From: Erythrobacter sp.
Lineage (GTDB): Bacteria > Pseudomonadota > Alphaproteobacteria > Sphingomonadales > Sphingomonadaceae
Direction of reading: 5' to 3'
Assembly (NCBI GenBank): GCA_019739335.1
Contig: CP073261.1
Span: 996,818-1,060,817, forward strand
DNA length: 64,000 bases
The notes below the pieces were generated by a model. That model saw only the letters and a program-made list of their open reading frames with translations. It did not search any database and was not told where the DNA came from. The first letter of the stretch is position 1. Each line of letters starts with the position of its first letter. Positions 9,293-20,360 of the stretch are shown here, piece by piece. A program made the position numbers and the translations under genes.

Positions 9293-9392
9293 CCCACCCC
9301 TAACCGCTGGGGCTTCGCCCCCTCTTCGAGTCCCCGCCAGCGGGAGGGGGACCTGAACTCCCCTCCCGCTGGCGGGAGGGGCCGGGGGTGGG
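9293..9392. repeat. Left REP-doublet (REPIN-like) arm
   Basis: CCCACCCC...CCCCGCCAGCGGGAGGGG / CCCCTCCCGCTGGCGGGAGGGGCCGGGGGTGGG; internally palindromic. Confidence 0.85.
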
Positions 9393-9437
9393 AACGACAG
9401 CCCTAGCGATAGAAGCACCAAAAACCCCTTGCCAACA

Positions 9438-9452
9438 AAACAAACCAAGAAC
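9438..9452. promoter_or_regulatory. Alphaproteobacterial LexA (SOS) box-like site
   Basis: Minus strand GTTC-TTGGTTT-GTTT (GTTC-N7-GTTY), overlapping a TTGCCA...CATCAT promoter-like region before the DUF559 ATG. Confidence 0.6.
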
Positions 9453-9464
9453 ATCATTCCCAAT

Positions 9465-9893
9465 ATGACCGACTGGGAACCCCGCGACACGCAGCGCGCC
9501 CGCGCCCTGCGCAGCGCCGCCACTCCGGCAGAGCGCGCCCTGTGGCGACACCTCTCCCGCCGCCAGACCGGTGGCGCAAAATTCTCCCGTCAGTTGCCAG
9601 TAGGCCGCTACTACGCCGATTTCCTCTGCCGCGAACTGGCGCTGGTGGTGGAGTGCGACGGCTTCAGCCACGACCTGCGCCCCGAACACGATGCCCACCG
9701 CGACGCCTTCATGCGCCGCGCCGGTTACACCGTGCTGCGCTTCGCCAATGCCGACGTGCTGGGGAATACCGAGGGGGTGGTTTACATGATCGCCGCTGAG
9801 GTGGAGCGGTTGCGCTCGTTGCGAGGTCAGCGCTCCGTTTCAGACGGCTGTCAGGCCCACCCCCAGCCCCTCCCGCCAGCGGGAGGGGAGTAG
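9465..9893 (+). CDS. DUF559 / Vsr-like PD-(D/E)xK endonuclease domain protein
   Basis: TPAERALWRHL, FSRQLPVGRYYADF, VVECDGFSH, RDAFMRRAGYTVLRF; ATG 9465 preferred over TTG 9429. Confidence 0.9.
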   Translation: MTDWEPRDTQRARALRSAATPAERALWRHLSRRQTGGAKFSRQLPVGRYYADFLCRELALVVECDGFSHDLRPEHDAHRDAFMRRAGYTVLRFANADVLGNTEGVVYMIAAEVERLRSLRGQRSVSDGCQAHPQPLPPAGGE

Positions 9894-9961
9894 AACGACA
9901 AGTCCCCCTCCCGCGGGCGGGGACTCGAAGAGGGGGCGGAGCTCCAGCGGTTAAGGGTGGG
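9856..9961. repeat. Right REP-doublet arm, inverted copy of 9293-9392
   Basis: Reverse complement reads CCCACCCTTAACCGCTGGAGCTCCGCCCCCTCTTCGAGTCCCCGCCCGCGGGAGGGGGAC...CTCCCCTCCCGCTGGCGGGAGGGGCTGGGGGTGGG, near-identical to the left arm. Confidence 0.85.
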
Positions 9962-10019: not shown

Positions 10020-10214
10020 CTACCGCCAAGGCTCACAAGCCACCCCATCCGCATCACCATCCATAGTCACCCGATAGCCCGGCTCGCCTTCATGGATCGG
10101 CGCCCTGCCCAGCGCGCGGACCTCGTCGCAGCCGGAATAGGTGACGCTGCCCTCGATCGCGGCGCGCTCTGCGGGGCTCATCATGGCCAGTTCGACCTTG
10201 CCGGCGGCGATCAA
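10020..10214 (-). CDS. Excalibur calcium-binding domain protein (5' end unclear or truncated)
   Basis: YSGCDEVRALGRAPIHEGEPGYRVTMDGDADGVACE. Confidence 0.75.
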   Translation of the reverse strand: MIAAGKVELAMMSPAERAAIEGSVTYSGCDEVRALGRAPIHEGEPGYRVTMDGDADGVACEPWR

Positions 10215-10271
10215 CGTTCCGGCGAAGGCGATTGCGGCAGATGCTAAGTCAGCAAAAGCGTCAAAATATCA

Positions 10272-10421
10272 TCAGTCTCGATCTGGAGGAGGGAGAATAT
10301 CTCGCGGGTCCGATCGCTTTACATAGCCTTCATCAATCCGCGGTGGCGGAGGTGGAGGTGGTGGCGGGGGAGGAGGAGGAGGAGGAGGAGGCGATGGTGG
10401 TGGTGATTTCGGATCGGCCAT
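10272..10421 (-). CDS. 49-aa poly-proline microprotein (not in ORF track)
   Basis: GGAGG-N7-ATG; MADPKSPPPS-P17-RIDEGYVKRSDPRDILPPPDRD-stop; all four Pro codons used. Confidence 0.6.
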   Translation of the reverse strand: MADPKSPPPSPPPPPPPPPPPPPPPPPRIDEGYVKRSDPRDILPPPDRD

Positions 10422-10953
10422 CAGATTTCCCTCCGTATGCAACGATAGCAACAGCAGTAGTGCTCAAAGAAATGATAAATAGCAGATATGCCGCATTCTG
10501 ACAACGGACTAGCCATTTTGAAAATTTTGGGTCGGAAGTTTTTACGCTCTTTTTTAAATAATATTCCTGCGCAATCTTAGCGCGACGCTTATATGCGATT
10601 CCAGATAAGTACTGCTCCCCCATCGCGGCAATGAGCGTTAACAAGAAACAGATCAGGCCAATGTAAAGAAGATAAGCCTCAGAAAAATCAGGGAATTTCC
10701 CTTCAACGCCGAAAATTAGCCCCGGCACTCCAAGAAGCGAAGCTGAGGTTATTTGGATTACCGTTGAGATTAGACTATCTTCTCTTGCTTCCCTCGCTGT
10801 TTCGTATTGGGAGCAATCCTCGCGCATCCACTGATGACGACGAGCTGCCTCAACGTGAGACAGCGGGTGCTCGCCGCGCTTCTTAGTCGCTAGCTTCCGA
10901 TTTGCTCGACCTTCTGCGAGCCTTTTCCAATTGTCTGAGCGGTACGTGGGCAA
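10333..10953 (-). CDS. Hypothetical membrane protein, about 3 TM (cassette gene 3)
   Basis: Hydrophobic segments ITSASLLGVPGLIFGV, YLLYIGLICFLLTLIAAMG, AYLLFIISLSTTAVAIVAY; low GC; TTG start uncertain. Confidence 0.7.
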   Translation of the reverse strand: MPTYRSDNWKRLAEGRANRKLATKKRGEHPLSHVEAARRHQWMREDCSQYETAREAREDSLISTVIQITSASLLGVPGLIFGVEGKFPDFSEAYLLYIGLICFLLTLIAAMGEQYLSGIAYKRRAKIAQEYYLKKSVKTSDPKFSKWLVRCQNAAYLLFIISLSTTAVAIVAYGGKSDGRSEITTTIASSSSSSSPATTSTSATAD

Positions 10954-10955
10954 AT

Positions 10956-11408
10956 CTAAAAAACCCTATTGTACAACCAGCCCAAGCCGTAGAATAAGCT
11001 ACAAACGAAGATTATTGCCGGAATAATCTGCTCAATTCCGGATGGGCCAAACGTAAATGGCCCCTTAATTCTTTTGTAGCAATCCCACTCGCGGGTGAAC
11101 GGAGCGTAGGCAAGACTTTTCTCGATATCGTGGATAACGTCCCATTTCGCTTTGGCAAGCTGTTGATAAAATCGAACAGTTACAAACCAAATAGAAGATA
11201 TTATGAGAAATGGGATTATTAAGTAGGAGAAGGAAAACCCGCGGTCAGATGCAAAAATAGCGACGCCCGCCGAGATCAATGCAGTAGAGGTAACCGAGAC
11301 GCTCTGGCGTTTCGTTTCGGACGCGCAAGCAGTTTCGACTACGGTAGCATGCAGTGCTAGTAGCTGTTCAATTTCCGCAGTAGAGGTTCCAGATTCCGTC
11401 GATGACAC
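10956..11408 (-). CDS. Small 2-3 TM membrane protein, resembling the RipA/octameric membrane-protein family found next to DUF1863 TIRs
   Basis: KRQSVSVTSTALIS, IWFVTVRFYQQLAKAKWDVIHDIE, PFTREW, IEQIIPAIIF. Family assignment is from recalled pattern only. Confidence 0.65.
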   Translation of the reverse strand: MSSTESGTSTAEIEQLLALHATVVETACASETKRQSVSVTSTALISAGVAIFASDRGFSFSYLIIPFLIISSIWFVTVRFYQQLAKAKWDVIHDIEKSLAYAPFTREWDCYKRIKGPFTFGPSGIEQIIPAIIFVCSLFYGLGWLYNRVF

Positions 11409-11796
11409 TTTGCTTATTCCACCCCACCAGTTTTTTGGCTGCTTGAGCTACTACCGCTGACTTTTTTTCCTGACCCCAAGGGTTAACTGCTAAAATGGGC
11501 TTTGCGAACGAAACAGCCCCTTCAATCTCTTTTTGAATCCAAGTGCTGTAGTTTGCATACATTCCGGTTGGAATCACCACCACATCCGACAGTGTTATCT
11601 TTGTATAGATTGCCCCCCGGAGCTGGGCCTCGCTATTTGCGAAGTGGATCGGATCGCTTTTGGGAACGGAGAAATTTTCAAAGATCAAGGGAACGCCTGA
11701 TACGTTCCAGTTCTCCTGAAATATCCAATTCGCGAGACTGTCGTAATGTCCCGAATATGACCACGAATGGCTGATGAATATCCGGACCTTATGCAT
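11368..11796 (-). CDS. TIR-domain protein, DUF1863/ThsB-like
   Basis: IFISHSW, FENFSVPK, SDVVVIPTGMYANYSTWIQKEI (catalytic Glu), KPILAVNPWG, LVGWN; ATG overlaps the nrdB TGA (GTG at 11799 is the alternative start). Confidence 0.9.
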   Translation of the reverse strand: MHKVRIFISHSWSYSGHYDSLANWIFQENWNVSGVPLIFENFSVPKSDPIHFANSEAQLRGAIYTKITLSDVVVIPTGMYANYSTWIQKEIEGAVSFAKPILAVNPWGQEKKSAVVAQAAKKLVGWNKQSVIDGIWNLYCGN

Positions 11797-12869
11797 CACT
11801 CCGCCGCCACGCTCCCACTCGCCGCACCGCCGGACCGCTCGCCAAACATATCCGGCCCCTCGTCCTCAACCTCGTTCGCCGCGACCGCCTTGGCCTTCTG
11901 GCGCGAGTCGAAGCTGGACCAGACGTCGTTCCAGTTGCCCTTGGTTGCGGCCTTCGAATATTCGGTCGCGCGGGTTTCGAAGAAGTTGGCGTGTTCCACC
12001 CCGTTCAGCAGCGGGGCGAGCCAGGGGAGCGGGTGGTCTTCGACCATGTAGATGCTCGGCAGGCCAAGCTGGCCCAGCCGCCAATCGGCGATGTAGCGGA
12101 TGTAGCGCTTGATTTCCTTCGCCGTCATCCCCGGCACCGGCCCCTGCTCGAAGGCGAGGTCGATGAAGGCATCTTCCAGCCGCACCGTCTTCTGGCACAT
12201 GTCCATGATGTCTTCCTTCACCGCCTTGGTGAGGCAGCCGCGTTCGGCGCAGAAGGCGTGGAACAGCCGGGTGATGCCTTCGCAGTGCAGGCTTTCATCG
12301 CGCACAGACCAGCTGACGATCTGCCCCATGCCCTTCATCTTGTTGAAGCGCGGGAAGTTCATCAGCATGGCGAAGCTGGCGAACAGTTGCAGCCCTTCGG
12401 TAAAGCCGCCGAACATTGCCAGCGTGCGGGCAATGTCCTCGTCGTTATCGACGCCGAACTGCTGCAGGTAATCGTGCTTGTCGCGCATTTCCTGGTATTC
12501 GAGGAACATGCCGTATTCGCTTTCGGGCATGCCGATGGTGTCGAGCAGGTGCGAATAGGCGGCGATGTGCACCGTCTCCATGTTGGAGAAGGCGGCGAGC
12601 ATCATCTTCACCTCGGTCGGCTTGAACACCCGGCCGTATTTCTCGTGGTAGCAATCCTGCACCTCGATATCGGCCTGGGTGAAGAAGCGGAAGATCTGGG
12701 TGAGCAGGTTGCGCTCATGATCGGTGAGGTTCTGCGCCCAGTCGCGGCAATCTTCGCCGAGCGGAACTTCTTCCGGCATCCAGTGGACCTGCTGCTGGCG
12801 CTTCCAGAACTCGTAAGCCCAGGGATATTCAAAGGGCTTGTAGGTCTTGCGGGCTTCGAGCAACGACAT
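11796..12869 (-). CDS. nrdB: Ribonucleoside-diphosphate reductase class Ia beta subunit
   Basis: FTQADIEV, ETVHIAAY, FTEGLQLFASF, RDESLH, VEHANFFE; start at MSLLEARKTYKPF. Confidence 0.97.
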   Translation of the reverse strand: MSLLEARKTYKPFEYPWAYEFWKRQQQVHWMPEEVPLGEDCRDWAQNLTDHERNLLTQIFRFFTQADIEVQDCYHEKYGRVFKPTEVKMMLAAFSNMETVHIAAYSHLLDTIGMPESEYGMFLEYQEMRDKHDYLQQFGVDNDEDIARTLAMFGGFTEGLQLFASFAMLMNFPRFNKMKGMGQIVSWSVRDESLHCEGITRLFHAFCAERGCLTKAVKEDIMDMCQKTVRLEDAFIDLAFEQGPVPGMTAKEIKRYIRYIADWRLGQLGLPSIYMVEDHPLPWLAPLLNGVEHANFFETRATEYSKAATKGNWNDVWSSFDSRQKAKAVAANEVEDEGPDMFGERSGGAASGSVAAE

Positions 12870-12991
12870 CTGGTATCTCCGGCAGGTATGCGAACAACCT
12901 ATATAGGGAATCACGGCAGCGATTCGATAGCAAGCCCGGACTTTCGGCGGGGGATAAACGGTGGAACCTTTTGTGCGGCGGGCTGGAGGGG

Positions 12992-13016
12992 GGAACGCGG
13001 GTGCGGGAGGCCCGTT
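12992..13016 (+). promoter_or_regulatory. EcfG/sigmaT-type (general stress) promoter
   Basis: GGAAC-N16-CGTT, upstream of ATG 13053. Confidence 0.7.
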
Positions 13017-13052
13017 TCAGCACTGTAGCAATCGTAAATGCAGGAGGCCCCG

Positions 13053-13259
13053 ATGGGCGAATACGAACCCGACGACAGCCGCAAGGTCACGCTCGAGCCC
13101 GGTCACGAACCCGGCGGCATCAAGCGCACCGGCCCGCAGGAAGACGGGGCGCGGCGCGTTGCCCTCGCCCGCGAACGGGCGAAGGAGCGCGGCGAGCGCG
13201 CGGAGGATGGCGACCAGAAGCGACCGGGCGACGGAACCGACCCGCGCCATCGGGGTTGA
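13053..13259 (+). CDS. Small charged hypothetical protein (68 aa)
   Basis: CAGGAGG RBS; MGEYEPDDSRKVTLEPGHEPGG; EcfG-type promoter upstream. Confidence 0.65.
   Translation: MGEYEPDDSRKVTLEPGHEPGGIKRTGPQEDGARRVALARERAKERGERAEDGDQKRPGDGTDPRHRG
13233..13257 (+). promoter_or_regulatory. EcfG-type promoter
   Basis: GGAAC-N17-GTT, upstream of ATG 13294. Confidence 0.55.
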
Positions 13260-13293
13260 GGATTCATGTCATCATCGCAGCGGAGGTTGCGCC

Positions 13294-13452
13294 ATGTTCG
13301 ATCATGTTTCCAATAACTTGCCAGCGCGGGACCAGCAGCCGAAATCCCGCGCGCCCAGAGTGCTGACCATGGACCAGTCGCAGCATGTCGGGGTGCAGAA
13401 GCACGGCTTCGCCAGTCTGGAAAGGCCGCCGCGGGAACGCGACGCGATCTAG
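13294..13452 (+). CDS. Small hypothetical protein (52 aa)
   Basis: CGGAGG RBS; MFDHVSNNLPARDQQPKSRAPRVLTMDQSQH. Confidence 0.55.
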   Translation: MFDHVSNNLPARDQQPKSRAPRVLTMDQSQHVGVQKHGFASLERPPRERDAI

Positions 13453-13455
13453 CGG

Positions 13456-13761
13456 CTAACCTTCGTCCTTGTTGAACCGGCGCGAAATTTCCAGCGCGAT
13501 CAGGATCGGCGTGGCCCACAGCCAGGTGAGCAGTGCCGCCTCGCGCCAGCCGCCGCCGTCCATCGGCAGGCGTGCCGAGCAGCCGTAGATCTCGAGCAGG
13601 TTTTCCGGCTGGCAGGTGGAGGGCCAATAGGCGCCGGAATAGAGGTAGAGACCGAGCGTGAACCAGGCTACCTGCGCGACATAGAGGACGAAGTAGCGCG
13701 AGACCTGGATCTCGCCATGCCCGTGGTGCGTCAGAAAGCGCCTGCTGCCTCGTCCTGCCAT
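13456..13761 (-). CDS. Small membrane protein
   Basis: Two hydrophobic segments flanking WPSTCQP...YGCS; start uncertain. Confidence 0.6.
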   Translation of the reverse strand: MAGRGSRRFLTHHGHGEIQVSRYFVLYVAQVAWFTLGLYLYSGAYWPSTCQPENLLEIYGCSARLPMDGGGWREAALLTWLWATPILIALEISRRFNKDEG

Positions 13762-13815
13762 GCGCGAAGGGATAACCCGGAAATGGTTAGGAAATGCTTA
13801 CCCGCCGGCACGTGG

Positions 13816-14211
13816 CTATTTCCAGAACAGCCCGCCTTTCAGCCCCTTGGACTGGCGGTTGCCCCACATGCGCAGGTACATCCACATGCCAGAGACGGTG
13901 AAGAACACCAGCGCGAGGCCCGATAGCATGACAATGATCTCGCCCCAGATTCCGCCCTCGGTGCCGGCATGGAGGTGGTGGAACAGGCCGAGATATTCGC
14001 CCAGCGGATTGCCGGCGTCCGGGCGCGGCGCCATGCAGCGCCACCCTTCGGGGCAGGTAAAGCCGGGCGGCGGCTGGGTGGCGGCAATGGCGGCCGCCGT
14101 CGGCTCGCCCGCAGGCCACCACACCACGGCGTAATGCAGCAGCCCGGTGATCGCGACCCAGATCATCACCACGGCGAAAAAGACGCTCATCCAGCGGTGC
14201 CACTTGCGCAT
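13816..14211 (-). CDS. PepSY-associated TM helix protein (short form)
   Basis: MRKWHRW...WVAITGLL; FHHLHAG; SGMWMY. Confidence 0.85.
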   Translation of the reverse strand: MRKWHRWMSVFFAVVMIWVAITGLLHYAVVWWPAGEPTAAAIAATQPPPGFTCPEGWRCMAPRPDAGNPLGEYLGLFHHLHAGTEGGIWGEIIVMLSGLALVFFTVSGMWMYLRMWGNRQSKGLKGGLFWK

Positions 14212-14239
14212 TGTCGAAGATCCCTGCTCACTGCGGTTG

Positions 14240-14258
14240 AATTAGAATTATCGTTATA
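14240..14258 (-). promoter_or_regulatory. Fur-box-like AT-rich site upstream of the PepSY-TM gene
   Basis: TATAACGATAATTCTAATT, 13/19 match to GATAATGATAATCATTATC. Confidence 0.4.
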
Positions 14259-14381
14259 TAATTGCGGCATATCCGCCCCTGCAGGGTCCGAGGCAAGTCG
14301 CAAATTGTCGCTTCCTGTCGCATGTGTTTCGCGAACTTGTTCCGATTGCCTTGCCTGCTCCGCGAAGGCATTTGGCAAACC

Positions 14382-15245
14382 ATGCAAACCGAGCGACAAC
14401 TCCCGGCTTATCTCTCCCGCATCGGTTTGGCGCAGGCCCCTTTGCCCGATGCCGCCAGCCTTGCCCGCGTGCAGGCGGCCCATCGGCAGACGATCCCGTT
14501 CGAGAACCTTGCCATTCGCGCGGGCGGAAGTGTGGCCTGCGATAGCGAAGCGGTGTTCGCCAAGCTGGTCACCGCCCGGCGCGGCGGGTTCTGCTTCGAA
14601 CACAATCGTTTGCTGGCGGACATGCTGGCCGCGATGGGTTTCGATGTGCGGCTGCTGCTCGCCCGCGTGCTGCTCGGCGAGCCCGCGGAACTTCCCCCGC
14701 GCACCCACTGCCTGGTGCTGGTGCAGATCGACGGCGCCCCATGGATCGCCGATGCCGGGTTTGGCGGCGCCTATGCCCCGCCGATGCCGCTGATCGACGG
14801 AGCCGAAGCAGAGAGCGGCGACGGCGCGCGCCACCGGCTGCGGCGGATCGGCGAAGAGGGTACGCTGCCCGGCTCGTGGCTGCTCGAGCGGCTGGGGCCG
14901 CTCCATGCCACCGATGGCCGCGCGCGTAGTGAAAGCGCGTGGGAAAAGCAGTTCGCCTTCGATCTTGGGCAGGTGGCACAGGCAGACATGGCGCTCGGCT
15001 GCCACTGGGCCGCCACCCATCCCATGTCGCGCTTCACGCAGGTGACGGTAGCGAGCCTGTGTCTGGCCACGGGCTTCGCTAGCCTGGTCGATCGCGAGCT
15101 TTCCCTCGGGCAGGCTGGATGCGAGCCGGTGAAGCGCACGATTGCCGATGTTGCCGATTACCGCACAACGCTGGCGCAGCAATTCGGGCTCGATCTCGCC
15201 GCGCAGGACATCAACCGCCTGCCGCTCTTCACTGGCGAGTGTTAG
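14382..15245 (+). CDS. Arylamine N-acetyltransferase family protein
   Basis: YLSRIG, IPFENL, RRGGFCFEHN (Cys), RTH (His), ADAGFG (Asp). Confidence 0.9.
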   Translation: MQTERQLPAYLSRIGLAQAPLPDAASLARVQAAHRQTIPFENLAIRAGGSVACDSEAVFAKLVTARRGGFCFEHNRLLADMLAAMGFDVRLLLARVLLGEPAELPPRTHCLVLVQIDGAPWIADAGFGGAYAPPMPLIDGAEAESGDGARHRLRRIGEEGTLPGSWLLERLGPLHATDGRARSESAWEKQFAFDLGQVAQADMALGCHWAATHPMSRFTQVTVASLCLATGFASLVDRELSLGQAGCEPVKRTIADVADYRTTLAQQFGLDLAAQDINRLPLFTGEC

Positions 15246-15508
15246 TCGCTCACCACGACGTCGCTGGCATCCCGGTCGATGGCCCAGGCCCACAGGCCGA
15301 TGCTGGCGAGCCAGCCAAGGTTGAACGCGATCAGGACAGCGATCACTTTCCGGCGCGATGCGGTGCGCGGGCCTGGTCCCGGAACGATCCCACGATGGTT
15401 GCCGAATGCGGCGGCAACGCTGCGCAAGTTGAGCAGCAACCAGAGCCCGCTCGCCAGCGCGATAACGCCGAACGTCGCGATGAGCATTTGCGGCACTTCA
15501 AGCGGCAT
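15242..15508 (-). CDS. Small 2-TM membrane protein
   Basis: Two hydrophobic helices; EcfG-type promoter upstream. Confidence 0.6.
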   Translation of the reverse strand: MPLEVPQMLIATFGVIALASGLWLLLNLRSVAAAFGNHRGIVPGPGPRTASRRKVIAVLIAFNLGWLASIGLWAWAIDRDASDVVVSD

Positions 15509-15544
15509 GGTTCGCTCCTTCTCGCCCCTTCCCGCGATCCGTCT

Positions 15545-15570
15545 AATGGGCGAGCGGGGGGCAAGGTTCC
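15545..15570 (-). promoter_or_regulatory. EcfG-type promoter
   Basis: Minus strand GGAAC-N17-CATT. Confidence 0.5.
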
Positions 15571-15694
15571 GAACCTGTGCTACTTGCCCTTCTTGGAACT
15601 AAGCCGGCTTTCCCCGCCCGAAACGCAAATTCCGAGGAATAAGCCGGGACCGGAACCGGGCGCGGAGGCTTCGTCAAAAGTACCAATCGCTGTT

Positions 15695-15865
15695 CTACAC
15701 CGCCAGAACGACCGAAAGCGCTAAGAACACTGCGCCGACTCCGAGCAGGACAGGCGCCTGCTTCTTCGCCTGCGCCGCCTTTTCGGCGTCCTTCACGACC
15801 TTGTCTGCCGCTAGCAGGAAGATAATTCCCGCAACAACCAGGCCGATGCCACCATAGAAAAGCAT
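15695..15865 (-). CDS. 56-aa 2-TM microprotein (not in ORF track)
   Basis: GGGAG RBS; MLFYGGIGLVVAGIIFLLAADKVVKDAEKAAQAKKQAPVLLGVGAVFLALSVVLAV. Confidence 0.7.
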   Translation of the reverse strand: MLFYGGIGLVVAGIIFLLAADKVVKDAEKAAQAKKQAPVLLGVGAVFLALSVVLAV

Positions 15866-15936
15866 ATGCGTCTCCCCCCGCGCCTCAGCGCGCCCAGCGA
15901 CCGCATGGCCGGGATACGCCTGATTCTGCTACTTGG

Positions 15937-16236
15937 CTAGCTGCGCTTGCGTGAGCCGAAAAACGAGCCGCCGCCGAGGACGGTGATACCGAGAAAGAAG
16001 CCGAAATCGTACCAGCCGCCCGAGTTTGGCACGGCGTAGACGGCGATGTCGGGGCGGAACAGCGAACCGATCCAGGCGAAGGGGAAAATGAACCCGTGCC
16101 AGATGCCCCACCAGAAGCCGGGGGTCTGCGGTGCAGTATCGACGGCGGCAGGCATCTGGCTGGCGCAGGCGGACAGGAGGAGAGTGACGAGTACGAGCGT
16201 GACCCACCGCGCTCTAAACTCCTCAGGCTGCTGCAT
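15937..16236 (-). CDS. Small membrane lipoprotein, hypothetical
   Basis: LLLSAC lipobox; PGFWWGIWHGFIFPF...YDFGFFLG; start uncertain (16236, 16251 or 16278). Confidence 0.75.
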   Translation of the reverse strand: MQQPEEFRARWVTLVLVTLLLSACASQMPAAVDTAPQTPGFWWGIWHGFIFPFAWIGSLFRPDIAVYAVPNSGGWYDFGFFLGITVLGGGSFFGSRKRS

Positions 16237-16567
16237 GTCGTTCTTCGTCATTGATCGCGCCCTCAAGAGCAAGAGCAATTGCCGCCCGACCTACGTGATC
16301 AGACCGAGGCATGATGCAGACCGACACTCCCAGTTCACCGTGGCGAAGCAGGCGACAATAGAAATCTTTGACCTTGAGATTGGACTCGTCAGCCTCTGCG
16401 AGGTCGTTTGCCGCGTGGAAGCATAACGCTTGAACCTCGAGGTCTCTTACGACCGTCACTGCGTAGATCCCCGGAGACCCAGCGAATGACTCGCTTTGGT
16501 GCTTCCTTCGAAAGCGAATTTGCCGACCGTCAACGGTTTGAAAATTGTTCCAAATATTCATCAACAT
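16223..16567 (-). CDS. Low-GC hypothetical protein
   Basis: GAAGGAG RBS before ATG 16567; 25/60 GC at 16501-16560. Confidence 0.5.
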   Translation of the reverse strand: MLMNIWNNFQTVDGRQIRFRRKHQSESFAGSPGIYAVTVVRDLEVQALCFHAANDLAEADESNLKVKDFYCRLLRHGELGVSVCIMPRSDHVGRAAIALALEGAINDEERHAAA

Positions 16568-16666
16568 CTCCTTCTTTGAGACGAAATGTTGAGAGCATCC
16601 TTGATTTCCAAACTCTCCCGACGCATTGTCGGGTTGCACCGAGTGGAGAGGAAACTCTCAGCTCAT

Positions 16667-16695
16667 GGCCCGGCAAGCTAGCGCTTTGCCGGGCC
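16667..16695. terminator. Stem-loop at the nrdA 3' end
   Basis: GGCCCGGCAA / TTGCCGGGCC 10-bp stem; the T-tract follows on the + strand. Confidence 0.6.
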
Positions 16696-16709
16696 TAATT
16701 TTTTCTCCC

Positions 16710-18716
16710 TCACTGGCAAGCCAGACACTCGTCATAATCCGTCGTGGGCAGTTCATAGACCGCAGCTTCGGCAGTATTGTCCGCTTCCACCCCGCCCGCA
16801 AACCCGGCGCGCTGGACCGACTTCGAACGCAGGTAATAGAGCGATTTGATGCCCTTCTCCCACGCCTGGAAGTGCAGCATCGCCAGATCCCACTTGTCGA
16901 CGTCCGCCGGGATGAACAGGTTCAACGACTGAGCCTGGTCGATGAACGGCGCACGGTCGGCGGCGAATTCGAGCAGCCAGCGCTGGTCGATCTCGAAGCT
17001 GGTCTTGTACGCCGCCTTTTCCTCGTCGCTGAGGAAATCGAGGTGCTGGACAGAGCCGCCCTTTTCCAGGATCGAATTCCACACGGTAGTGGAATTCTTG
17101 CTCTTCTTGTCGAGGATCTTTTCCAGGTAGGGGTTCTTCACCACGAAGCTGCCCGAGAGCGTCTTGTGGGTGTAGATGTTCGCCGGGATCGGCTCGATAC
17201 AGGCGCTGGTGCCGCCGCAGATGATGCTGATCGACGCGGTTGGTGCGATCGCCATCTTGCAGCTGAACCGCTCCATCGCGCCCATGTCCTCGGCATCGGG
17301 GCAGGGGCCGCGTTCCTTGGCCAGCATCATGCTCGCCTCGTCCGCCTTGGCGCTGATGTGCTTGAACATTTTCAGGTTCCACACCTTGGCCATCGTGCTT
17401 TCGAAGCCGATGCCCTTCATCTGCAGGAACGAGTGGAAACCCATGACCCCCATGCCGACCGAACGTTCGCGCATGGCGGAATACTTGGCGCGGGCCATTT
17501 CTTCCGGCGCGCGGTCGATATAGTCCTGCAGCACGTTGTCGAGGAAGCGCATCACGTCCTCGATGAACTGCTTGTCGCCTTCCCACTCTTCCCACTTCTC
17601 GAGATTGAGCGAGGACAGGCAGCAGACCGCGGTGCGATCGTTGCCGAGGTGGTCGATCCCAGTCGGCAGGGTGATTTCGCTGCACAGGTTGGAGGTCGAA
17701 ACCTTCAGCCCCAGATCGCGGTGATGCTTGGGCATCATCCGGTTCACCGTGTCGGAGAAGACGATATAGGGCTCGCCCGTGGCCAACCGGGTTTCGACCA
17801 GCTTCTGGAACAGCGCGCGCGCATCCACCGTCTTGCGCACCGAACCGTCCTTGGGGCTGAGGAGATCGAAGCTCTCCCCGGCGCGCACCGCTTCCATGAA
17901 TTTATCGGTCAGCAGCACGCCGTGGTGCAGGTTCAGCGCCTTGCGGTTGAAATCGCCGGAGGGTTTGCGGATTTCGAGGAATTCCTCGATTTCCGGGTGG
18001 TGCACGTCGATGTAGCAGGCGGCCGATCCGCGCCGCAGCGAACCCTGGCTGATCGCCAGCGTCAGGCTGTCCATCACCCGCACAAAAGGAATGATGCCGC
18101 TGGTCTTGCCGTTCAGCCCCACCGGTTCGCCGATGCCGCGCACATTGCCCCAGTAGGTGCCGATGCCGCCGCCCTTGCTGGCGAGCCAGACGTTCTCGTT
18201 CCAGGTGCCGACGATGCCGTCGAGGCTGTCGCTGACCGAGTTCAGGTAGCACGAAATCGGTAGCCCGCGGGTGGTGCCGCCATTGGACAGCACCGGAGTG
18301 GCGGGCATGAACCAGAGGTTGGAAATGTAGTCGTAGAGCCGCTGCGCGTGTTCGGCATCGTCGGCATAGGCATCGGCGACGCGGGCGAACAGATCCTGAT
18401 AGGACTCGCCCGGAAGCAGGTAGCGGTCCTTGAGCGTTTCACGGCCGAAATCGGTGAGATTGGCGTCACGCGACGAATCGGTCTGCACGTCGAACCGGCG
18501 GGCCTGGATGGTCTTGGAATCACTCTTCGATGCTGCCGCCGCCGTGGCGACTGCCGCCAGCGCCCCGGCGCTCGCCTGCGCCACCAGCGCTTCCGAAGCC
18601 ATATCCTTGGTATCCATGCTTACTGCCTTTGAAGGCTCCACAGGATCATTACCGACGGAGCTTACATGCGACTGATCAGGTGACATTGATTGGCGATCAT
18701 TCGCTGAAAATTCCAT
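16710..18716 (-). CDS. nrdA: Ribonucleoside-diphosphate reductase class Ia alpha subunit (no obvious ATP cone)
   Basis: PATPVLSN, PISCY, SNLCSEI (radical Cys), AIAPTASIS, IDQAQS, LYYLRS, C-terminal CLACQ. Confidence 0.97.
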   Translation of the reverse strand: MEFSANDRQSMSPDQSHVSSVGNDPVEPSKAVSMDTKDMASEALVAQASAGALAAVATAAAASKSDSKTIQARRFDVQTDSSRDANLTDFGRETLKDRYLLPGESYQDLFARVADAYADDAEHAQRLYDYISNLWFMPATPVLSNGGTTRGLPISCYLNSVSDSLDGIVGTWNENVWLASKGGGIGTYWGNVRGIGEPVGLNGKTSGIIPFVRVMDSLTLAISQGSLRRGSAACYIDVHHPEIEEFLEIRKPSGDFNRKALNLHHGVLLTDKFMEAVRAGESFDLLSPKDGSVRKTVDARALFQKLVETRLATGEPYIVFSDTVNRMMPKHHRDLGLKVSTSNLCSEITLPTGIDHLGNDRTAVCCLSSLNLEKWEEWEGDKQFIEDVMRFLDNVLQDYIDRAPEEMARAKYSAMRERSVGMGVMGFHSFLQMKGIGFESTMAKVWNLKMFKHISAKADEASMMLAKERGPCPDAEDMGAMERFSCKMAIAPTASISIICGGTSACIEPIPANIYTHKTLSGSFVVKNPYLEKILDKKSKNSTTVWNSILEKGGSVQHLDFLSDEEKAAYKTSFEIDQRWLLEFAADRAPFIDQAQSLNLFIPADVDKWDLAMLHFQAWEKGIKSLYYLRSKSVQRAGFAGGVEADNTAEAAVYELPTTDYDECLACQ

Positions 18717-18835
18717 ATGGAAGTCCTCTTTCTCTTGCCTATTTTCACTCTGTTAGAACAGGCACGAGTCAGACTGACCCGAAAAGCGATATCGCTTTTC
18801 GGGCTGGATCACCCCTAATCAAACGTCGATCTGCC

Positions 18836-18883
18836 CTACACAATCTTGCGTGCGGAAGTAGCCGTTCACACAAGCGATTGTGG
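18836..18883. promoter_or_regulatory. Tandem NrdR-box-like pair upstream of nrdA
   Basis: CTACACAATCTTGCGT (18836-18851) and ACACAAGCGATTGTGG (18868-18883), 32 bp apart. Confidence 0.65.
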
Positions 18884-18947
18884 TTAGAGTCGATGTAAGG
18901 TTGATTGTCAATCTGACGGAAACAGGAAATTTCGATCAAAATGCCGG

Positions 18948-19133
18948 CTAAAACGGGCAGGTGTCAGGGGCTGAATCGCCGGACCACGGCAGAATCTCGT
19001 CGTCTGCGTAATTCTCGTTAATGACCGACATCCATTTTTGCCTGAATTTTGGAACGTGAATATCCACAACCCAGATTAGCCGATTCACATAACCCGCTAT
19101 CTCAACCGGCGGTCTGCGATTCCAAGAGCCCAT
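18948..19133 (-). CDS. Possible 61-aa hypothetical protein between two NrdR-box pairs
   Basis: AAAGGA-N6-ATG; no recognisable domain. Confidence 0.3.
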   Translation of the reverse strand: MGSWNRRPPVEIAGYVNRLIWVVDIHVPKFRQKWMSVINENYADDEILPWSGDSAPDTCPF

Positions 19134-19153
19134 TTGCTGTCCTTTGCAAAATT

Positions 19154-19211
19154 ACACAAGATGTTGGGCCTCGCACCTTCAAACAGGCTTGGCGACCACA
19201 ATCCATAGTGA
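19154..19211. promoter_or_regulatory. Second NrdR-box-like pair
   Basis: ACACAAGATGTTGGGC (19154-19169; core fits CwAnATnTwG) and CCACAATCCATAGTGA (19196-19211), 42 bp apart. Confidence 0.55.
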
Positions 19212-19238
19212 ATAGGGAGGGGCCGGGGCGCAAGAGGG

Positions 19239-19254
19239 TTAAGTCGGCTTTAAC
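19239..19254. promoter_or_regulatory. CtrA binding site
   Basis: Exact TTAA-GTCGGCT-TTAAC (TTAA-N7-TTAAC). Confidence 0.7.
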
Positions 19255-19544
19255 ATGCGACCGTGCCTGATTCTGTCGCTGTATTGCCGGGCCAACACGC
19301 CGCGACGTGTGGAATTCCCACGGCTGGTGGGCTGCGCAAGGGGCAAAATGCAGCGGGGGAAAAATTCTCCGGCGTTGCGCGATTGCGATTCTTTGTGTGC
19401 CAGCGGGGAATCAATGGAATCGGGCAGCGCAACAAAGCTGCGAAATGTTCACCCGGCTTTTACCCGTGCTGGACGAAAGGCTGCCGGGCAGGCACTATGC
19501 CGGCACGAGATCGACGGCTCAATCGCAGATTACGGGGGCGCAGC

Positions 19545-19766
19545 ATGATCGCTTTCATCAAGGCCATTCCCTTTGGCATATTGCTGACCATTCTGGTCGC
19601 CCTGTTCATGGGCTCGGGCGGCGCGACCGGCGGGATGCTCAATATCTTCCGCGTGGACGTGGACTATCCCACACTGTGGCTCGATTTCAGCTTTTACTGG
19701 AGCTGGATGCTGTTCCTCGGCGGAACCGGGCTGGCGTTCGTGTTCATGCTGATGATGGGGGATTAG
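19545..19766 (+). CDS. Small 2-TM membrane protein (73 aa)
   Basis: MIAFIKAIPFGILLTILVALFMGSGG...FYWSWMLF; GGGGG upstream. Confidence 0.7.
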   Translation: MIAFIKAIPFGILLTILVALFMGSGGATGGMLNIFRVDVDYPTLWLDFSFYWSWMLFLGGTGLAFVFMLMMGD

Positions 19767-19771
19767 ATCCA

Positions 19772-20317
19772 TCAGTGCATGATTGTTCCGGCGGGAACAC
19801 CGGATGTACCGAAGATGTGGCTATCGCCTTCCATGTACATTGTGATCTGCACCTTGTCGCTGAGCCAACGGAAACTCTGGCTGTTCAGTTCCAAACCGGG
19901 AACGTAGAGTTGATGGAATTTTGACCCGGCAAAAGTTTGGGTGGTGTCGATCGTTTCCAGGACATGACCTTCGTAAGTGCGCTGCTGAGGCCTGGACAGG
20001 CCCGTCCAAGCACGCAAATCGGTGAGCAACCGAACGCTAACCATAACACGCATTGTGCTGTATGAATGCAGGACGGAAGCCAGCAGCCGGGCAGCGTGCG
20101 TTGACGGGATACCTTTCTCGCTCGCGTAGCCGTCGATAATCGCAAACTGTTTGGCCGATATCCACCAAGTGCCGGATTTTGCTTTCTCGAAAGTATCTCC
20201 GAAGCGGTACAGGCGAGTGCCCGCCTGAAGGGACGTTGGCTGAGGGGCAACAATGCCCTTGGCAACATCAGTGCGATGTTTTTGGTCGTTAAAATCGGTC
20301 TCGTTCACAAATGGCAT
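19772..20317 (-). CDS. Low-GC hypothetical protein, possible ART/TNT-like fold
   Basis: RLYRFG...GTWW...AWTGLSRPQ...QLYVPG; 29/60 GC at 19861-19920; GGGGGA RBS. Confidence 0.6.
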   Translation of the reverse strand: MPFVNETDFNDQKHRTDVAKGIVAPQPTSLQAGTRLYRFGDTFEKAKSGTWWISAKQFAIIDGYASEKGIPSTHAARLLASVLHSYSTMRVMVSVRLLTDLRAWTGLSRPQQRTYEGHVLETIDTTQTFAGSKFHQLYVPGLELNSQSFRWLSDKVQITMYMEGDSHIFGTSGVPAGTIMH

Positions 20318-20360
20318 GACAATTCCCCCCTTTGTCCTTCCGTAGTCTACTATTCTCTGT

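What the first reader, a model, noticed from the sequence alone, without database searches (positions are those of the whole stretch)
10272..11799. Low-GC TIR + two membrane proteins + poly-Pro peptide cassette: candidate non-canonical Thoeris-like anti-phage system
Seen: four tightly packed or overlapping minus-strand ORFs with GC far below the host (20/60 at 10501-10560 and 30/60 at 11041-11100, versus 43/60 at 2041-2100). Gene 1 is a DUF1863/ThsB-type TIR with the catalytic Glu (WIQKEI). Established: ThsB-type TIRs make NAD-derived signals that activate a separate effector (SIR2-SLOG, TM-Macro or caspase in described Thoeris types). None of those effectors is recognisable here. Instead there is a small 2-3 TM protein resembling the RipA/octameric pore-like family, an unrelated 3-TM protein and a microprotein. 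Inference: TIR signalling or phage sensing triggers membrane depolarisation and abortive infection.
Basis: partly seen in the sequence, partly recalled or inferred. Interest (0 to 1): 0.85.

Follow-up and report, generated by a model that had tools for sequence, protein, structure and literature searches.

The report
Thoeris-like TIR system, new membrane effector
A small foreign gene cassette placed directly behind the ribonucleotide reductase gene nrdB encodes a TIR immune-signalling enzyme, a conserved partner membrane protein (Pfam family 8xMP), a second membrane protein and a polyproline micro-protein; it is most likely an untested variant of the Thoeris anti-phage defence family.

Summary
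Window 10272-11799 is the lowest-GC stretch of the window (0.48 against 0.64). It holds four packed minus-strand genes:
- a ThsB-type TIR (catalytic Glu in WIQKE)
- an 8xMP (PF24838) protein with three transmembrane (TM) segments
- a second, unrelated 3-TM protein (ORF3)
- a Pro-rich micro-ORF that overlaps the end of ORF3

The conserved unit is TIR + 8xMP. The TIR gene lies directly upstream of 8xMP in all 10 close loci where upstream DNA is available, and in 5 of 6 distant 8xMP loci (Cyanobacteria, Betaproteobacteria, Alphaproteobacteria, a haloarchaeon).

The window TIR is 60% identical to a validated type VII Thoeris ThsB that makes cADPR. The 8xMP-linked TIRs form the sister clade to type VII TIRs. 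However, 8xMP shows no homology to SLATT or to any validated Thoeris effector.

A 2025 preprint lists a "3TM" partner for a TIR of this clade only in a supplementary table, untested.

ORF3 and the micro-ORF occur in about half of the close loci. The micro-ORF is conserved in the +1 frame, with up to 38 consecutive prolines.

In this alphaproteobacterial lineage the cassette always sits at the 3' end of nrdB, which is a recombination hotspot.

Defence function is inferred, not shown. I rate it a new variant of a known kind.

The parts
11368..11796 (-). thsB-like gene: TIR-only protein of 142 aa. The catalytic Glu90 codon GAG is at 11527-11529, in the motif WIQKE.
   Evidence: - PF08937 E 8.9e-12; PADLOC ThsB E 1.5e-6.
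- 59.9% identity to the validated type VII ThsB of Pseudohongiella nitratireducens.
- The ATG overlaps the nrdB stop (GAG-TGA-TG).
- 816 homologues found.
10956..11408 (-). 8xMP-family membrane protein of 150 aa with 3 predicted TM segments; the proposed signal-activated effector.
   Evidence: - PF24838, 56.1 bits against a cut-off of 30.
- 53 homologues at 58-76% identity.
- TM segments at 36-54, 57-82 and 124-147.
- AF2 model pLDDT 89, four helices.
- The GTG start inside the TIR 3' end is conserved in L016.
- Invariant across the wide family: R34, W74, K88, E96, E107, W108, E126, P130.
10333..10953 (-). ORF3: second membrane protein with 3 predicted TM segments. It is 206 aa as read, but the last ~30 residues are probably the Pro tract read in another frame. 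Accessory component.
   Evidence: - Matches no family library.
- 82 representative homologues in 1.84 billion proteins; two of them align from residue 1-2, which supports the TTG start.
- AF2 pLDDT 86.
- TM segments at 61-83, 94-116 and 153-176.
- Found after 8xMP in L009, L016 and L021, and probably at the P0056 locus.
10272..10421 (-). Pro-rich micro-ORF of 49 aa: MADPKSPPPSP(17)RIDEGYVKRSDPRDILPPPDRD. It overlaps the 3' end of ORF3 in the +1 frame.
   Evidence: - ATG preceded by GGAGGG.
- The same +1-frame ORF occurs in L009 and L016, with a shared end SAAPSMPPPPP-K. In L009 the ORF3 frame is closed there.
- The segment is fused in frame in 6 ORF3 homologues, with the Met kept in the four whose listed sequence reaches that position.
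- 31 of 49 full-length ORF3 homologues end in tails made only of T/A/S/P, the signature of (CCN)n read out of frame.
11796..12869 (-). nrdB (class I ribonucleotide reductase small subunit): the host anchor gene directly upstream. The real start is the Met of MSLLEARK.
   Evidence: - PF00268 E 1.5e-75.
- nrdB lies directly upstream of the cassette in window, L001, L007, L009, L016, L018 and L027.
10020..10270 (-). Distal border of the island. A host Excalibur-domain gene lies here; its hydrophobic leader has no start codon, so it appears 5'-truncated by the insertion.
   Evidence: - PF05901 E 6e-14.
- The reading frame is open but without ATG/GTG upstream of TTG 10214.
- Excalibur is also the downstream neighbour in L007.
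- GC rises to host level at about 10230-10270.

Best explanation
This is a Thoeris-type (TIR-signalling) abortive-infection cassette with an effector that has not been characterised.

Proposed mechanism:
1. The 142-aa ThsB-like TIR, with catalytic Glu90, senses infection and converts NAD+ into an ADP-ribose-derived signal. By its nearest relatives the signal would most likely be a cyclic ADPR isomer.
2. The signal binds the cytoplasmic face of an oligomeric ring of the 3-TM 8xMP protein. That face is formed by the N-terminal helix plus the TM2-TM3 loop, which carry the family-invariant R34, K88, E96, E107-W108 and E126.
3. The ring opens or disrupts the inner membrane and stops phage growth.

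ORF3 (a second 3-TM protein) and the overlapping Pro-rich micro-protein form an optional accessory pair, acting either as a modulator or as a second effector.

The cassette is foreign DNA lodged at a recombination hotspot at the 3' end of nrdB. It is probably transcribed and translationally coupled with nrdB.

Shown here: gene content, family memberships, conserved TIR-8xMP adjacency, TIR clade placement, conservation of the micro-ORF, and the nrdB linkage.

Inferred: sensing, signal identity, effector activation, membrane damage and defence.
For: TIR identity and placement:
- ThsB_TIR and PADLOC ThsB hits, with the catalytic Glu present.
- 59.9% identity to the P. nitratireducens type VII ThsB. 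Yirmiya et al. (bioRxiv 10.64898/2025.12.03.692087) showed that this system defends against phage and that type VII TIRs make canonical cADPR on infection.
- 60-64% identical TIRs in Providencia and Shewanella sit next to SLATT effectors.
- 8xMP-linked TIRs form one clade, sister to the SLATT-linked clade. That clade contains a TIR listed with a putative '3TM' effector in the preprint's Table S1.

TIR-8xMP adjacency:
- Present in every close locus with upstream DNA.
- Present in 5 of 6 distant PF24838 loci: the P0053 type, Synechococcus, Haladaptatus, Polaromonas and Haematospirillum plasmids.
- Several of these lie beside RM, PIN, TA, invertase or integrase genes.

Gene packing:
- Overlapping starts and stops, and no internal promoter-like or convincing terminator-like site.

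Precedent:
- 3-TM and other TM proteins without a classical nucleotide-binding domain are validated Thoeris effectors that are modelled as rings (ThsF/DUF2270) or filament-like TM oligomers (ThsH/SLATT).
Against: - No experiment bears on this family. The '3TM' type was not among the 30 operons tested by Yirmiya et al..
- 8xMP has no recognisable ligand-binding domain.
- 8xMP has no solved structural relative (Foldseek PDB best E 5) and no sequence relation to SLATT (hhalign probability 0.15%) or DUF2270.
- The window locus itself is not in a classical defence island. Its neighbours are nrdB and an Excalibur gene.
- The close subfamily is rare: 1 locus in 185,579 species genomes.
- The TIR is broken in some loci while 8xMP is intact (L018 nonsense codon; L023, L025 and L026 frameshift).
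- The role of ORF3 and the micro-protein is unexplained.
Confidence: 0.6

Rival explanations
1. Reversed polarity. The membrane proteins are the sensors (of injection, envelope stress or a phage membrane protein), and the TIR is the effector, an NADase that depletes NAD+, as in TIR-effector systems outside Thoeris.
For: - The TIR has the NADase catalytic Glu.
- 8xMP and ORF3 carry no known nucleotide-binding domain.
- Yirmiya et al. note that many bacterial TIRs act as NAD+-depleting effectors.
Against: - The TIR is a 142-aa TIR-only protein of the same cluster as signal-producing ThsBs (types IV, VII, VIII).
- Its sister clade pairs with SLATT membrane effectors that are activated by the TIR product.
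Confidence: 0.15
2. Not a phage-defence system. It would be an addiction or selfish cassette, or a membrane or nucleotide-related function tied to ribonucleotide reductase. TIR/DUF1863 folds resemble nucleoside-processing enzymes, and the genes are fused to the nrdB operon.
For: - Strict placement within 0-10 nt of the nrdB stop in window, L007, L016 and L027.
- The other cassettes at the same site are toxin-antitoxin-like pairs: BrnT plus a neighbour, and DUF4160/DUF2442.
- The TIR matches MTH538, a protein of unknown function.
Against: - The same TIR-8xMP pair occurs on plasmids of unrelated taxa with no nrdB nearby.
- The closest TIR relatives are validated defence genes.
- L009 carries a duplicated nrdB 3' fragment, which points to nrdB being a recombination anchor rather than a functional partner.
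Confidence: 0.1
3. Sub-claim about the fourth gene. The Pro-rich ORF is not a separate micro-protein. It would be either the periplasmic C-terminal tail of ORF3, reached by a +1 frameshift or lost by mutation, or non-coding low-complexity DNA.
For: - Six ORF3 homologues carry the Pro-rich segment fused in frame.
- (CCN)n has no stop codon in any frame, so open frames there are cheap.
- No RNA or peptide data exist for this organism's locus.
Against: - The Met is kept at the head of the Pro-rich segment in the fused forms whose listed sequence reaches it (P0200, P0207, P0215, P0245).
- A Shine-Dalgarno-like GGAGGG precedes the ATG in the window.
- In L009 the ORF3 frame closes early while the +1 ORF runs on to a motif shared with L016 (SAAPSMPPPPP).
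- The +1 frame is open for only 5 codons upstream of the ATG in L009 and L016, which leaves little room for a frameshift site.
Confidence: 0.25

Closest known systems
Type VII Thoeris (ThsB + ThsH/SLATT; Yirmiya et al. 2025 preprint)
   Same: - TIR-only ThsB of about 140 aa, 55-64% identical to the window TIR (sister clade).
- Two-gene operon with overlapping genes.
- The effector is a small multi-TM protein thought to oligomerise in the membrane.
- The signal in type VII is canonical cADPR.
   Different: - The effector here is 8xMP (150 aa, 3 TM), not SLATT/DUF4231 (about 294 aa).
- hhalign probability of a relation is 0.15%.
- Extra ORF3 and Pro-rich micro-ORF.
- The signal here is unknown.
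Putative 'TIR + 3TM' configuration in Table S1 / Figure 1C of Yirmiya et al. 2025
   Same: One listed TIR (ga0310345_10000007559) falls inside the 8xMP-linked TIR clade. This is very probably the same pairing.
   Different: - It is only a label in a supplementary table.
- The category is heterogeneous: other '3TM' TIRs fall in the SLATT or type IV clades.
- It was not tested, not described and not tied to PF24838.
- ORF3, the micro-ORF and the nrdB site are not mentioned.
Type V Thoeris (ThsB + ThsF/DUF2270)
   Same: - A 3-TM effector predicted to form a ring with pockets between protomers.
- The best, though non-significant, Foldseek hit of the 8xMP model in the viral library is a DUF2270 protein (E 0.82, TM 0.52).
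   Different: - None of 8 diverse 8xMP proteins matches PF10028, even at E <= 10.
- The TIR clade is different.
- The signal there is 3'cADPR.
Type II Thoeris (ThsB + Macro-TM effector)
   Same: A TIR signal activating a membrane-disrupting effector.
   Different: - No Macro domain here.
- The TIR is unrelated in detail.
- The signal there is His-ADPR.
Rst_2TM_1TM_TIR (Rousset et al. 2022; recalled from memory)
   Same: A TIR protein encoded with two small membrane proteins in a mobile hotspot.
   Different: - Here the partners have 3 + 3 TM segments.
- The PADLOC-DB scan returned only ThsB models for the TIR and nothing for the membrane proteins.

Membership tests
Thoeris (TIR-signalling defence systems, generic) | ThsB-type TIR protein with the catalytic glutamate | tested here: met
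   - PF08937 E 8.9e-12; PADLOC ThsB E 1.5e-6.
- WIQKE with E90, aligned to the Glu of validated ThsBs.
Thoeris (TIR-signalling defence systems, generic) | A dedicated partner (effector) gene adjacent and co-oriented, with the pairing conserved across taxa | tested here: met
   The TIR gene is directly upstream of 8xMP in all 10 close loci with upstream DNA and in 5 of 6 distant loci, including an archaeal plasmid.
Thoeris (TIR-signalling defence systems, generic) | The effector belongs to a validated family (SIR2-SLOG, Macro-TM, SLOG, caspase-like, DUF2270, DUF6650, SLATT, CMP hydrolase-TPR, TIR-SLOG, ion channel, HIT) | tested here: not met
   - Pfam, PADLOC and NCBIfam give only PF24838 for gene 2 and nothing for ORF3.
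- hhalign against SLATT: probability 0.15% and 0.4%.
Thoeris (TIR-signalling defence systems, generic) | Enrichment next to other defence genes | tested here: inconclusive
   - Relatives lie beside RM genes (L023), type I RM + PIN + integrase (L033), TA genes + invertase (L035), and NucS + helicase (L032).
- The window locus lies between nrdB and an Excalibur gene.
- No statistical census was possible.
Thoeris (TIR-signalling defence systems, generic) | Phage-triggered production of an ADPR-derived signal that activates the effector and protects the culture | not testable with these tools
   This needs plaque assays, LC-MS and toxicity assays.
Type VII Thoeris | ThsB of the cADPR-producing clade | tested here: inconclusive
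   59.9% identity to the validated ThsB, but the 8xMP-linked TIRs form the sister clade and are not nested inside it.
Type VII Thoeris | ThsH effector with SLATT/DUF4231 domains | tested here: not met
   - No SLATT hit at E <= 1.
- An HMM of four ThsH proteins finds nothing in the window or in any 8xMP locus.
- hhalign is negative.
Pfam PF24838 (8xMP) | Score above the curated gathering threshold | tested here: met
   56.1 bits against a cut-off of 30. Distant partners of TIR genes score 99-143 bits.
Pfam PF24838 (8xMP) | Octameric ring assembly in the membrane (as the family name says) | not testable with these tools
   Only a monomer could be modelled (pLDDT 89, four helices). No paper using the name was found.
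Type V Thoeris effector ThsF (DUF2270, PF10028) | Match to PF10028 | tested here: not met
   No hit in 8 diverse 8xMP proteins at E <= 10. There is only a non-significant fold resemblance.
Rst_2TM_1TM_TIR | TIR plus a 2-TM and a 1-TM protein matching the system's models | tested here: inconclusive
   - The PADLOC-DB scan gave no such hit.
- TM counts are 3 and 3.
- That PADLOC-DB 2.0 holds these models is my recollection; I did not check it.

The most novel reading that the evidence does not exclude
The ORF3 and polyproline micro-protein pair is a new kind of regulatory or sensing module for a TIR immune system. The idea is that a peptide with 17-38 consecutive prolines can only be made when EF-P-dependent translation is healthy. 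Its level, together with co-expression from the nrdB operon, which responds to dNTP demand, would report the translational and nucleotide state of the cell. That level would set the threshold at which the TIR-8xMP pair fires.
Probability: 0.08. Interest if true: 0.85.

Novelty: new variant of a known kind. Interest (0 to 1): 0.55.

Why it matters
- It gives a Pfam family of unknown function (8xMP) a concrete, testable role as a TIR-signal-activated membrane effector. The pairing is seen in Alpha- and Betaproteobacteria, Cyanobacteria and a haloarchaeon.
- It turns an unnamed '3TM' entry in a supplementary table into a defined system with coordinates, starts, conserved residues and accessory genes.
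- It exposes two oddities worth a bench test. One is a conserved overlapping gene for a micro-protein with up to 38 consecutive prolines. The other is a hotspot exactly at the stop codon of nrdB, where defence and toxin-antitoxin cassettes are swapped in a group of Alphaproteobacteria.
- If the TIR product differs from canonical cADPR, it would add to the list of TIR-derived immune signals.

Tried and rejected
- **8xMP + ORF3 as a split SLATT effector (150 + ~170 aa against 294 aa).** Rejected: hhalign probabilities are 0.15% and 0.4%, and 8xMP against ORF3 gives 2.5%.
- **Poly-Pro ORF as a mere frameshift artefact of an S/T-rich ORF3 tail.** This was my first reading. It was reversed by the DNA of L009 and L016 and by the T/A/S/P-tail signature.
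- **Sequencing error in the Pro tract.** Two independent assemblies agree.
- **Solved-structure relatives.** None by sequence apart from MTH538 for the TIR, and none by fold for 8xMP or ORF3.
- **Literature.** '8xMP', 'octameric membrane protein', PF24838, DUF7701 and polyproline + EF-P + anti-phage gave nothing relevant.
- **Viral origin.** No viral contig carries the close subfamily. The one hit in the 'phages' collection is a plasmid.
- **Wider locus sampling.** The metagenome and genome pattern scans returned only 2 and 1 loci, so there is no statistical census.
- **Window genome context from the gene index.** Not on record.
- **RNA evidence.** The RNA runs offered are listed only by species label and hold none of the island's sampled words. 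DNA runs X24 (no reads) and X22 (only 13 poor long reads, confined to the Pro tract), from the samples that gave RNA runs X26 and X25, do not carry the island, so no RNA reads were laid.
- **Flanking direct repeats, integrase or tRNA at the island borders.** No bordering direct repeats were found and no integrase-like ORF lies beside the island; a tRNA scan was not run.
Full report
**1. Observation**

The interval 10272-11799 has GC 0.482. It is the lowest of all 1528-nt windows in the 64-kb sequence (mean 0.638, sd 0.031).

GC3 of the three larger genes is 0.49-0.55, against 0.8-0.9 for the neighbours. The DNA is therefore compositionally foreign.

Four minus-strand ORFs are packed without intergenic space:
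- The TIR gene runs 11368-11796. Its ATG shares a base with the TGA of the upstream gene.
- The second gene runs 10956-11408. It starts at a GTG 41 nt inside the TIR 3' end.
- ORF3 runs 10333-10953. Its TTG start is one base after the previous stop.
- The Pro-rich ORF runs 10272-10421. It starts at an ATG preceded by GGAGGG and overlaps the last 89 nt of ORF3.

Contigs from two independent public runs reproduce 10100-12100 with no difference, including the proline tract.

**2. The proteins**

Gene 1 is a 142-aa TIR-only protein:
- It matches PF08937 ThsB_TIR (E 8.9e-12) and a PADLOC ThsB model (E 1.5e-6). Its only solved relative is MTH538.
- The catalytic Glu is E90, in WIQKE.

Gene 2 matches PF24838, 'octameric membrane protein family (8xMP)':
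- It scores 56 bits against a cut-off of 30.
- It has three hydrophobic segments.
- The AlphaFold2 model is confident (pLDDT 89, four helices).
- It has no solved structural relative (best Foldseek E about 5).

ORF3 matches no library:
- It is a real family of 82 representative clusters among 1.84 billion proteins. Two members align from residue 1-2, which supports the TTG start.
- It also has three TM segments and a confident model (pLDDT 86), with no structural relative.

By the positive-inside rule (my inference), both membrane proteins are N-in, C-out, with a 35-45-residue basic cytoplasmic loop between TM2 and TM3.

**3. Surroundings**

- The upstream gene is nrdB. nrdA lies at 16710-18716, and 3.8 kb of unrelated genes sit between them.
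- Downstream is an Excalibur-domain gene. Its hydrophobic leader lacks a start codon, so it appears truncated by the insertion.
- No sigma-70-like promoter or convincing terminator lies inside the island on the coding strand. No direct repeats bound it.
- The tight junction therefore suggests expression from the nrdB transcript. This is inference.

**4. Related loci**

The 8xMP protein has 53 close homologues at 58-76% identity, almost all metagenomic.

HMM searches on the six-frame translations of every fetched locus gave the following (contexts):
- A TIR gene is directly upstream of 8xMP wherever upstream DNA exists.
- nrdB is directly upstream of the cassette in seven independent loci: window, L001, L007, L009, L016, L018 and L027. 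The P0056 locus probably makes an eighth.
- ORF3 follows 8xMP in about half of the loci: window, L009, L016, L021, and probably the P0056 locus.

At the same site, other loci carry toxin-antitoxin-like pairs (BrnT plus a neighbour; DUF4160/DUF2442) or a restriction-modification pair.

The only hit among 185,579 species genomes is an Erythrobacter MAG. nrdB identities of 81-89% suggest that the window also comes from a sphingomonad or erythrobacterial alphaproteobacterium. This is inference.

In every locus the TIR-8xMP DNA is 0.46-0.54 GC, against 0.59-0.65 for nrdB.

L009 carries a second, diverged copy of the last ~40 codons of nrdB between the nrdB stop and the TIR gene. This is what one expects if cassettes are exchanged by homologous recombination with the nrdB 3' end as one arm.

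**5. The pairing is not confined to this lineage**

Distant PF24838 members (25-31% identical to the window protein, 99-143 bits to the Pfam model) also have a ThsB_TIR gene immediately upstream:
- In a metagenomic type, followed by DUF7701.
- On plasmids of Synechococcus elongatus, the archaeon Haladaptatus caseinilyticus, Polaromonas sp. H8N and Haematospirillum jordaniae.

That is five of six independent loci; the Leptolyngbya plasmid copy has no annotated TIR neighbour. Their neighbours include a type I restriction subunit, PIN_12, integrase, invertase, TA genes and NucS.

Residues invariant across the whole family lie on the predicted cytoplasmic face or at the helix ends: R34, K88, E96, E107, W108, E126 and P130.

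**6. Relation to known Thoeris types**

Yirmiya et al. (bioRxiv 10.64898/2025.12.03.692087) validated types V-XI and listed 29 putative types.

How the window TIR compares:

| Comparison TIR | Identity to window TIR |
|---|---|
| Type VII ThsB, Pseudohongiella nitratireducens SCS-111 (validated) | 59.9% |
| Type IV TIR | 42% |
| Type VIII TIR | 34% |

- The Pseudohongiella system defended E. coli, and the study's type VII TIRs were found to make canonical cADPR on infection.
- TIRs 60-64% identical to ours in Providencia, Shewanella and a hydrocarbon metagenome sit next to 294-aa SLATT/DUF4231 proteins, which is the type VII arrangement.
- In a neighbour-joining tree the 8xMP-linked TIRs form one clade, sister to the SLATT-linked clade.
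- One TIR listed in the preprint's Table S1 with a putative '3TM' effector (ga0310345_10000007559) falls inside the 8xMP-linked clade.

The pairing has therefore been glimpsed. However, it was not among the 30 operons tested, it is not discussed in the text, and the '3TM' label is heterogeneous.

8xMP is not a SLATT protein:
- There is no Pfam SLATT hit.
- hhalign probability is 0.15%.
- It does not match DUF2270, the 3-TM ring effector of type V.

The best Foldseek hit in the viral structure library happens to be a DUF2270 protein, but at E 0.82 and TM-score 0.52. I treat this only as a lead.

**7. The Pro-rich ORF**

My first reading was that ORF3 has an S/T-rich tail and that the poly-Pro frame is an artefact, because many homologues end in T/A/S-rich tails. 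The DNA says otherwise.

In L009 and L016 the +1 frame, just after TM3 of ORF3, opens with Met and encodes:
- L009: MSKPKGPPPPAPKPSRPPAPPVRTGDGIQKGGNRSAAPSMPPPPPPKK
- L016: MSNN-P(38)-GQGVQLGDVTKSAAPSMPPPPPKNK

The two share an 11-residue C-terminal motif. In L009 the ORF3 frame is closed there.

Tails made only of T, A, S and P are exactly what (CCN)n gives when read one base out of frame. 31 of 49 full-length ORF3 homologues have such tails.

Six homologues have the Pro-rich segment fused in frame, ending in the motif G-[RK]-S-[VI]-P-P-x-x-P-P-P-P-P-[KR]; the Met at the head of the segment is kept in the four whose listed sequence reaches it.

The window peptide fits the pattern: MADPKS-PPPS-P(17)-RIDEGYVKRSDPRDILPPPDRD.

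I conclude that this is a conserved small gene, probably translated on its own. A fusion produced by frameshifting is not excluded. No function can be read from it. Long proline runs need EF-P for translation (established knowledge), which invites but does not prove a regulatory idea.

**8. Mechanism and weights**

Most likely (0.6): a Thoeris-type system.
- The TIR senses infection and makes a cyclic-ADPR-type signal.
- The signal binds between protomers on the cytoplasmic face of an 8xMP ring.
- The ring then breaches the membrane.
- ORF3 and the micro-protein modulate this or add a second membrane effector.

Rivals:
- The TIR is the NAD+-depleting effector and the membrane proteins are sensors (0.15).
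- A non-defence or addiction function tied to nrdB (0.1).

Recurrent inactivation of the TIR with 8xMP left intact fits a costly immune gene, but it is weak evidence. The cases are a nonsense codon in L018 and frameshifts in L023, L025 and L026, beside an intact TIR in L024.

**9. Verdict**

- The system is a new variant of a known kind: an uncharacterised effector family for TIR signalling, with an undescribed accessory pair and an unusual insertion site.
- Everything about function is inference until the cassette is cloned and challenged.

Noticed in passing
window 11790-11800; L001, L007, L009, L016, L018, L027 junctions: The stop codon of nrdB is a hotspot. Different cassettes (TIR-8xMP, a BrnT-type TA pair, DUF4160/DUF2442) begin within 0-10 nt of it in related genomes. 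L009 holds a duplicated, diverged nrdB 3' fragment between nrdB and the TIR, as if cassettes are swapped by homologous recombination using the nrdB end as an arm.
   Followed up: partly
window 12915-16710: nrdA (16710-18716) and nrdB are separated by 3.8 kb of unrelated genes: an arylamine N-acetyltransferase at 14262-15245, a PepSY_TM fragment, and a low-GC orphan ORF at 16223-16639 directly after nrdA. L001 and L016 have different fillers in the same gap, so the nrdA 3' end also looks like a variable site.
   Followed up: partly
window 9293-9961: A DUF559 (Vsr-like endonuclease fold) gene at 9429-9893 is bracketed by about 100-nt imperfect inverted repeats (9293-9392 / 9862-9961) containing nested GC-rich palindromes. 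It looks like a small mobile or MITE-like unit. A DUF559 gene also sits in the nrdA-nrdB gap of L001.
   Followed up: no
window 10020-10270: The Excalibur-domain gene downstream of the island has a signal-peptide-like hydrophobic stretch but no start codon before it. It was apparently decapitated by the insertion. The intact homologue in L007 is 110 aa.
   Followed up: partly
L018 5535-5987; L023, L025, L026: The TIR gene is inactivated while the 8xMP gene stays intact. In the Erythrobacter MAG the Trp codon of the LANWIF motif reads TAG. In three metagenome contigs a frameshift splits the TIR, while a fourth (L024) has it intact.
   Followed up: partly
L012/L013 2523-6568; L033 2348-4339: A PIN_12 protein follows both a tandem pair of ThsB-SLATT (type VII) operons in Providencia stuartii and the TIR-8xMP pair on the Polaromonas plasmid. 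It may be a recurrent neighbour or accessory of this TIR clade.
   Followed up: no
L028 625-924; L029: In a distant TIR-8xMP locus the third gene is a soluble 99-aa DUF7701 protein rather than ORF3. Its start shares a base with the end of the 8xMP gene. It is a different accessory partner for the same core.
   Followed up: no
window 18400-20400: This is a second low-GC patch (about 0.49-0.55), upstream of nrdA. It holds orphan ORFs, for example 19772-20317 (181 aa) and a small membrane-like ORF ending at 19766. None has a Pfam match.
   Followed up: no
window 11368-11796: The TIR matches PHROG family phrog_6988 (unknown function, E 3.5e-25), so close TIR-only proteins are also carried by phages or prophages.
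   Followed up: no
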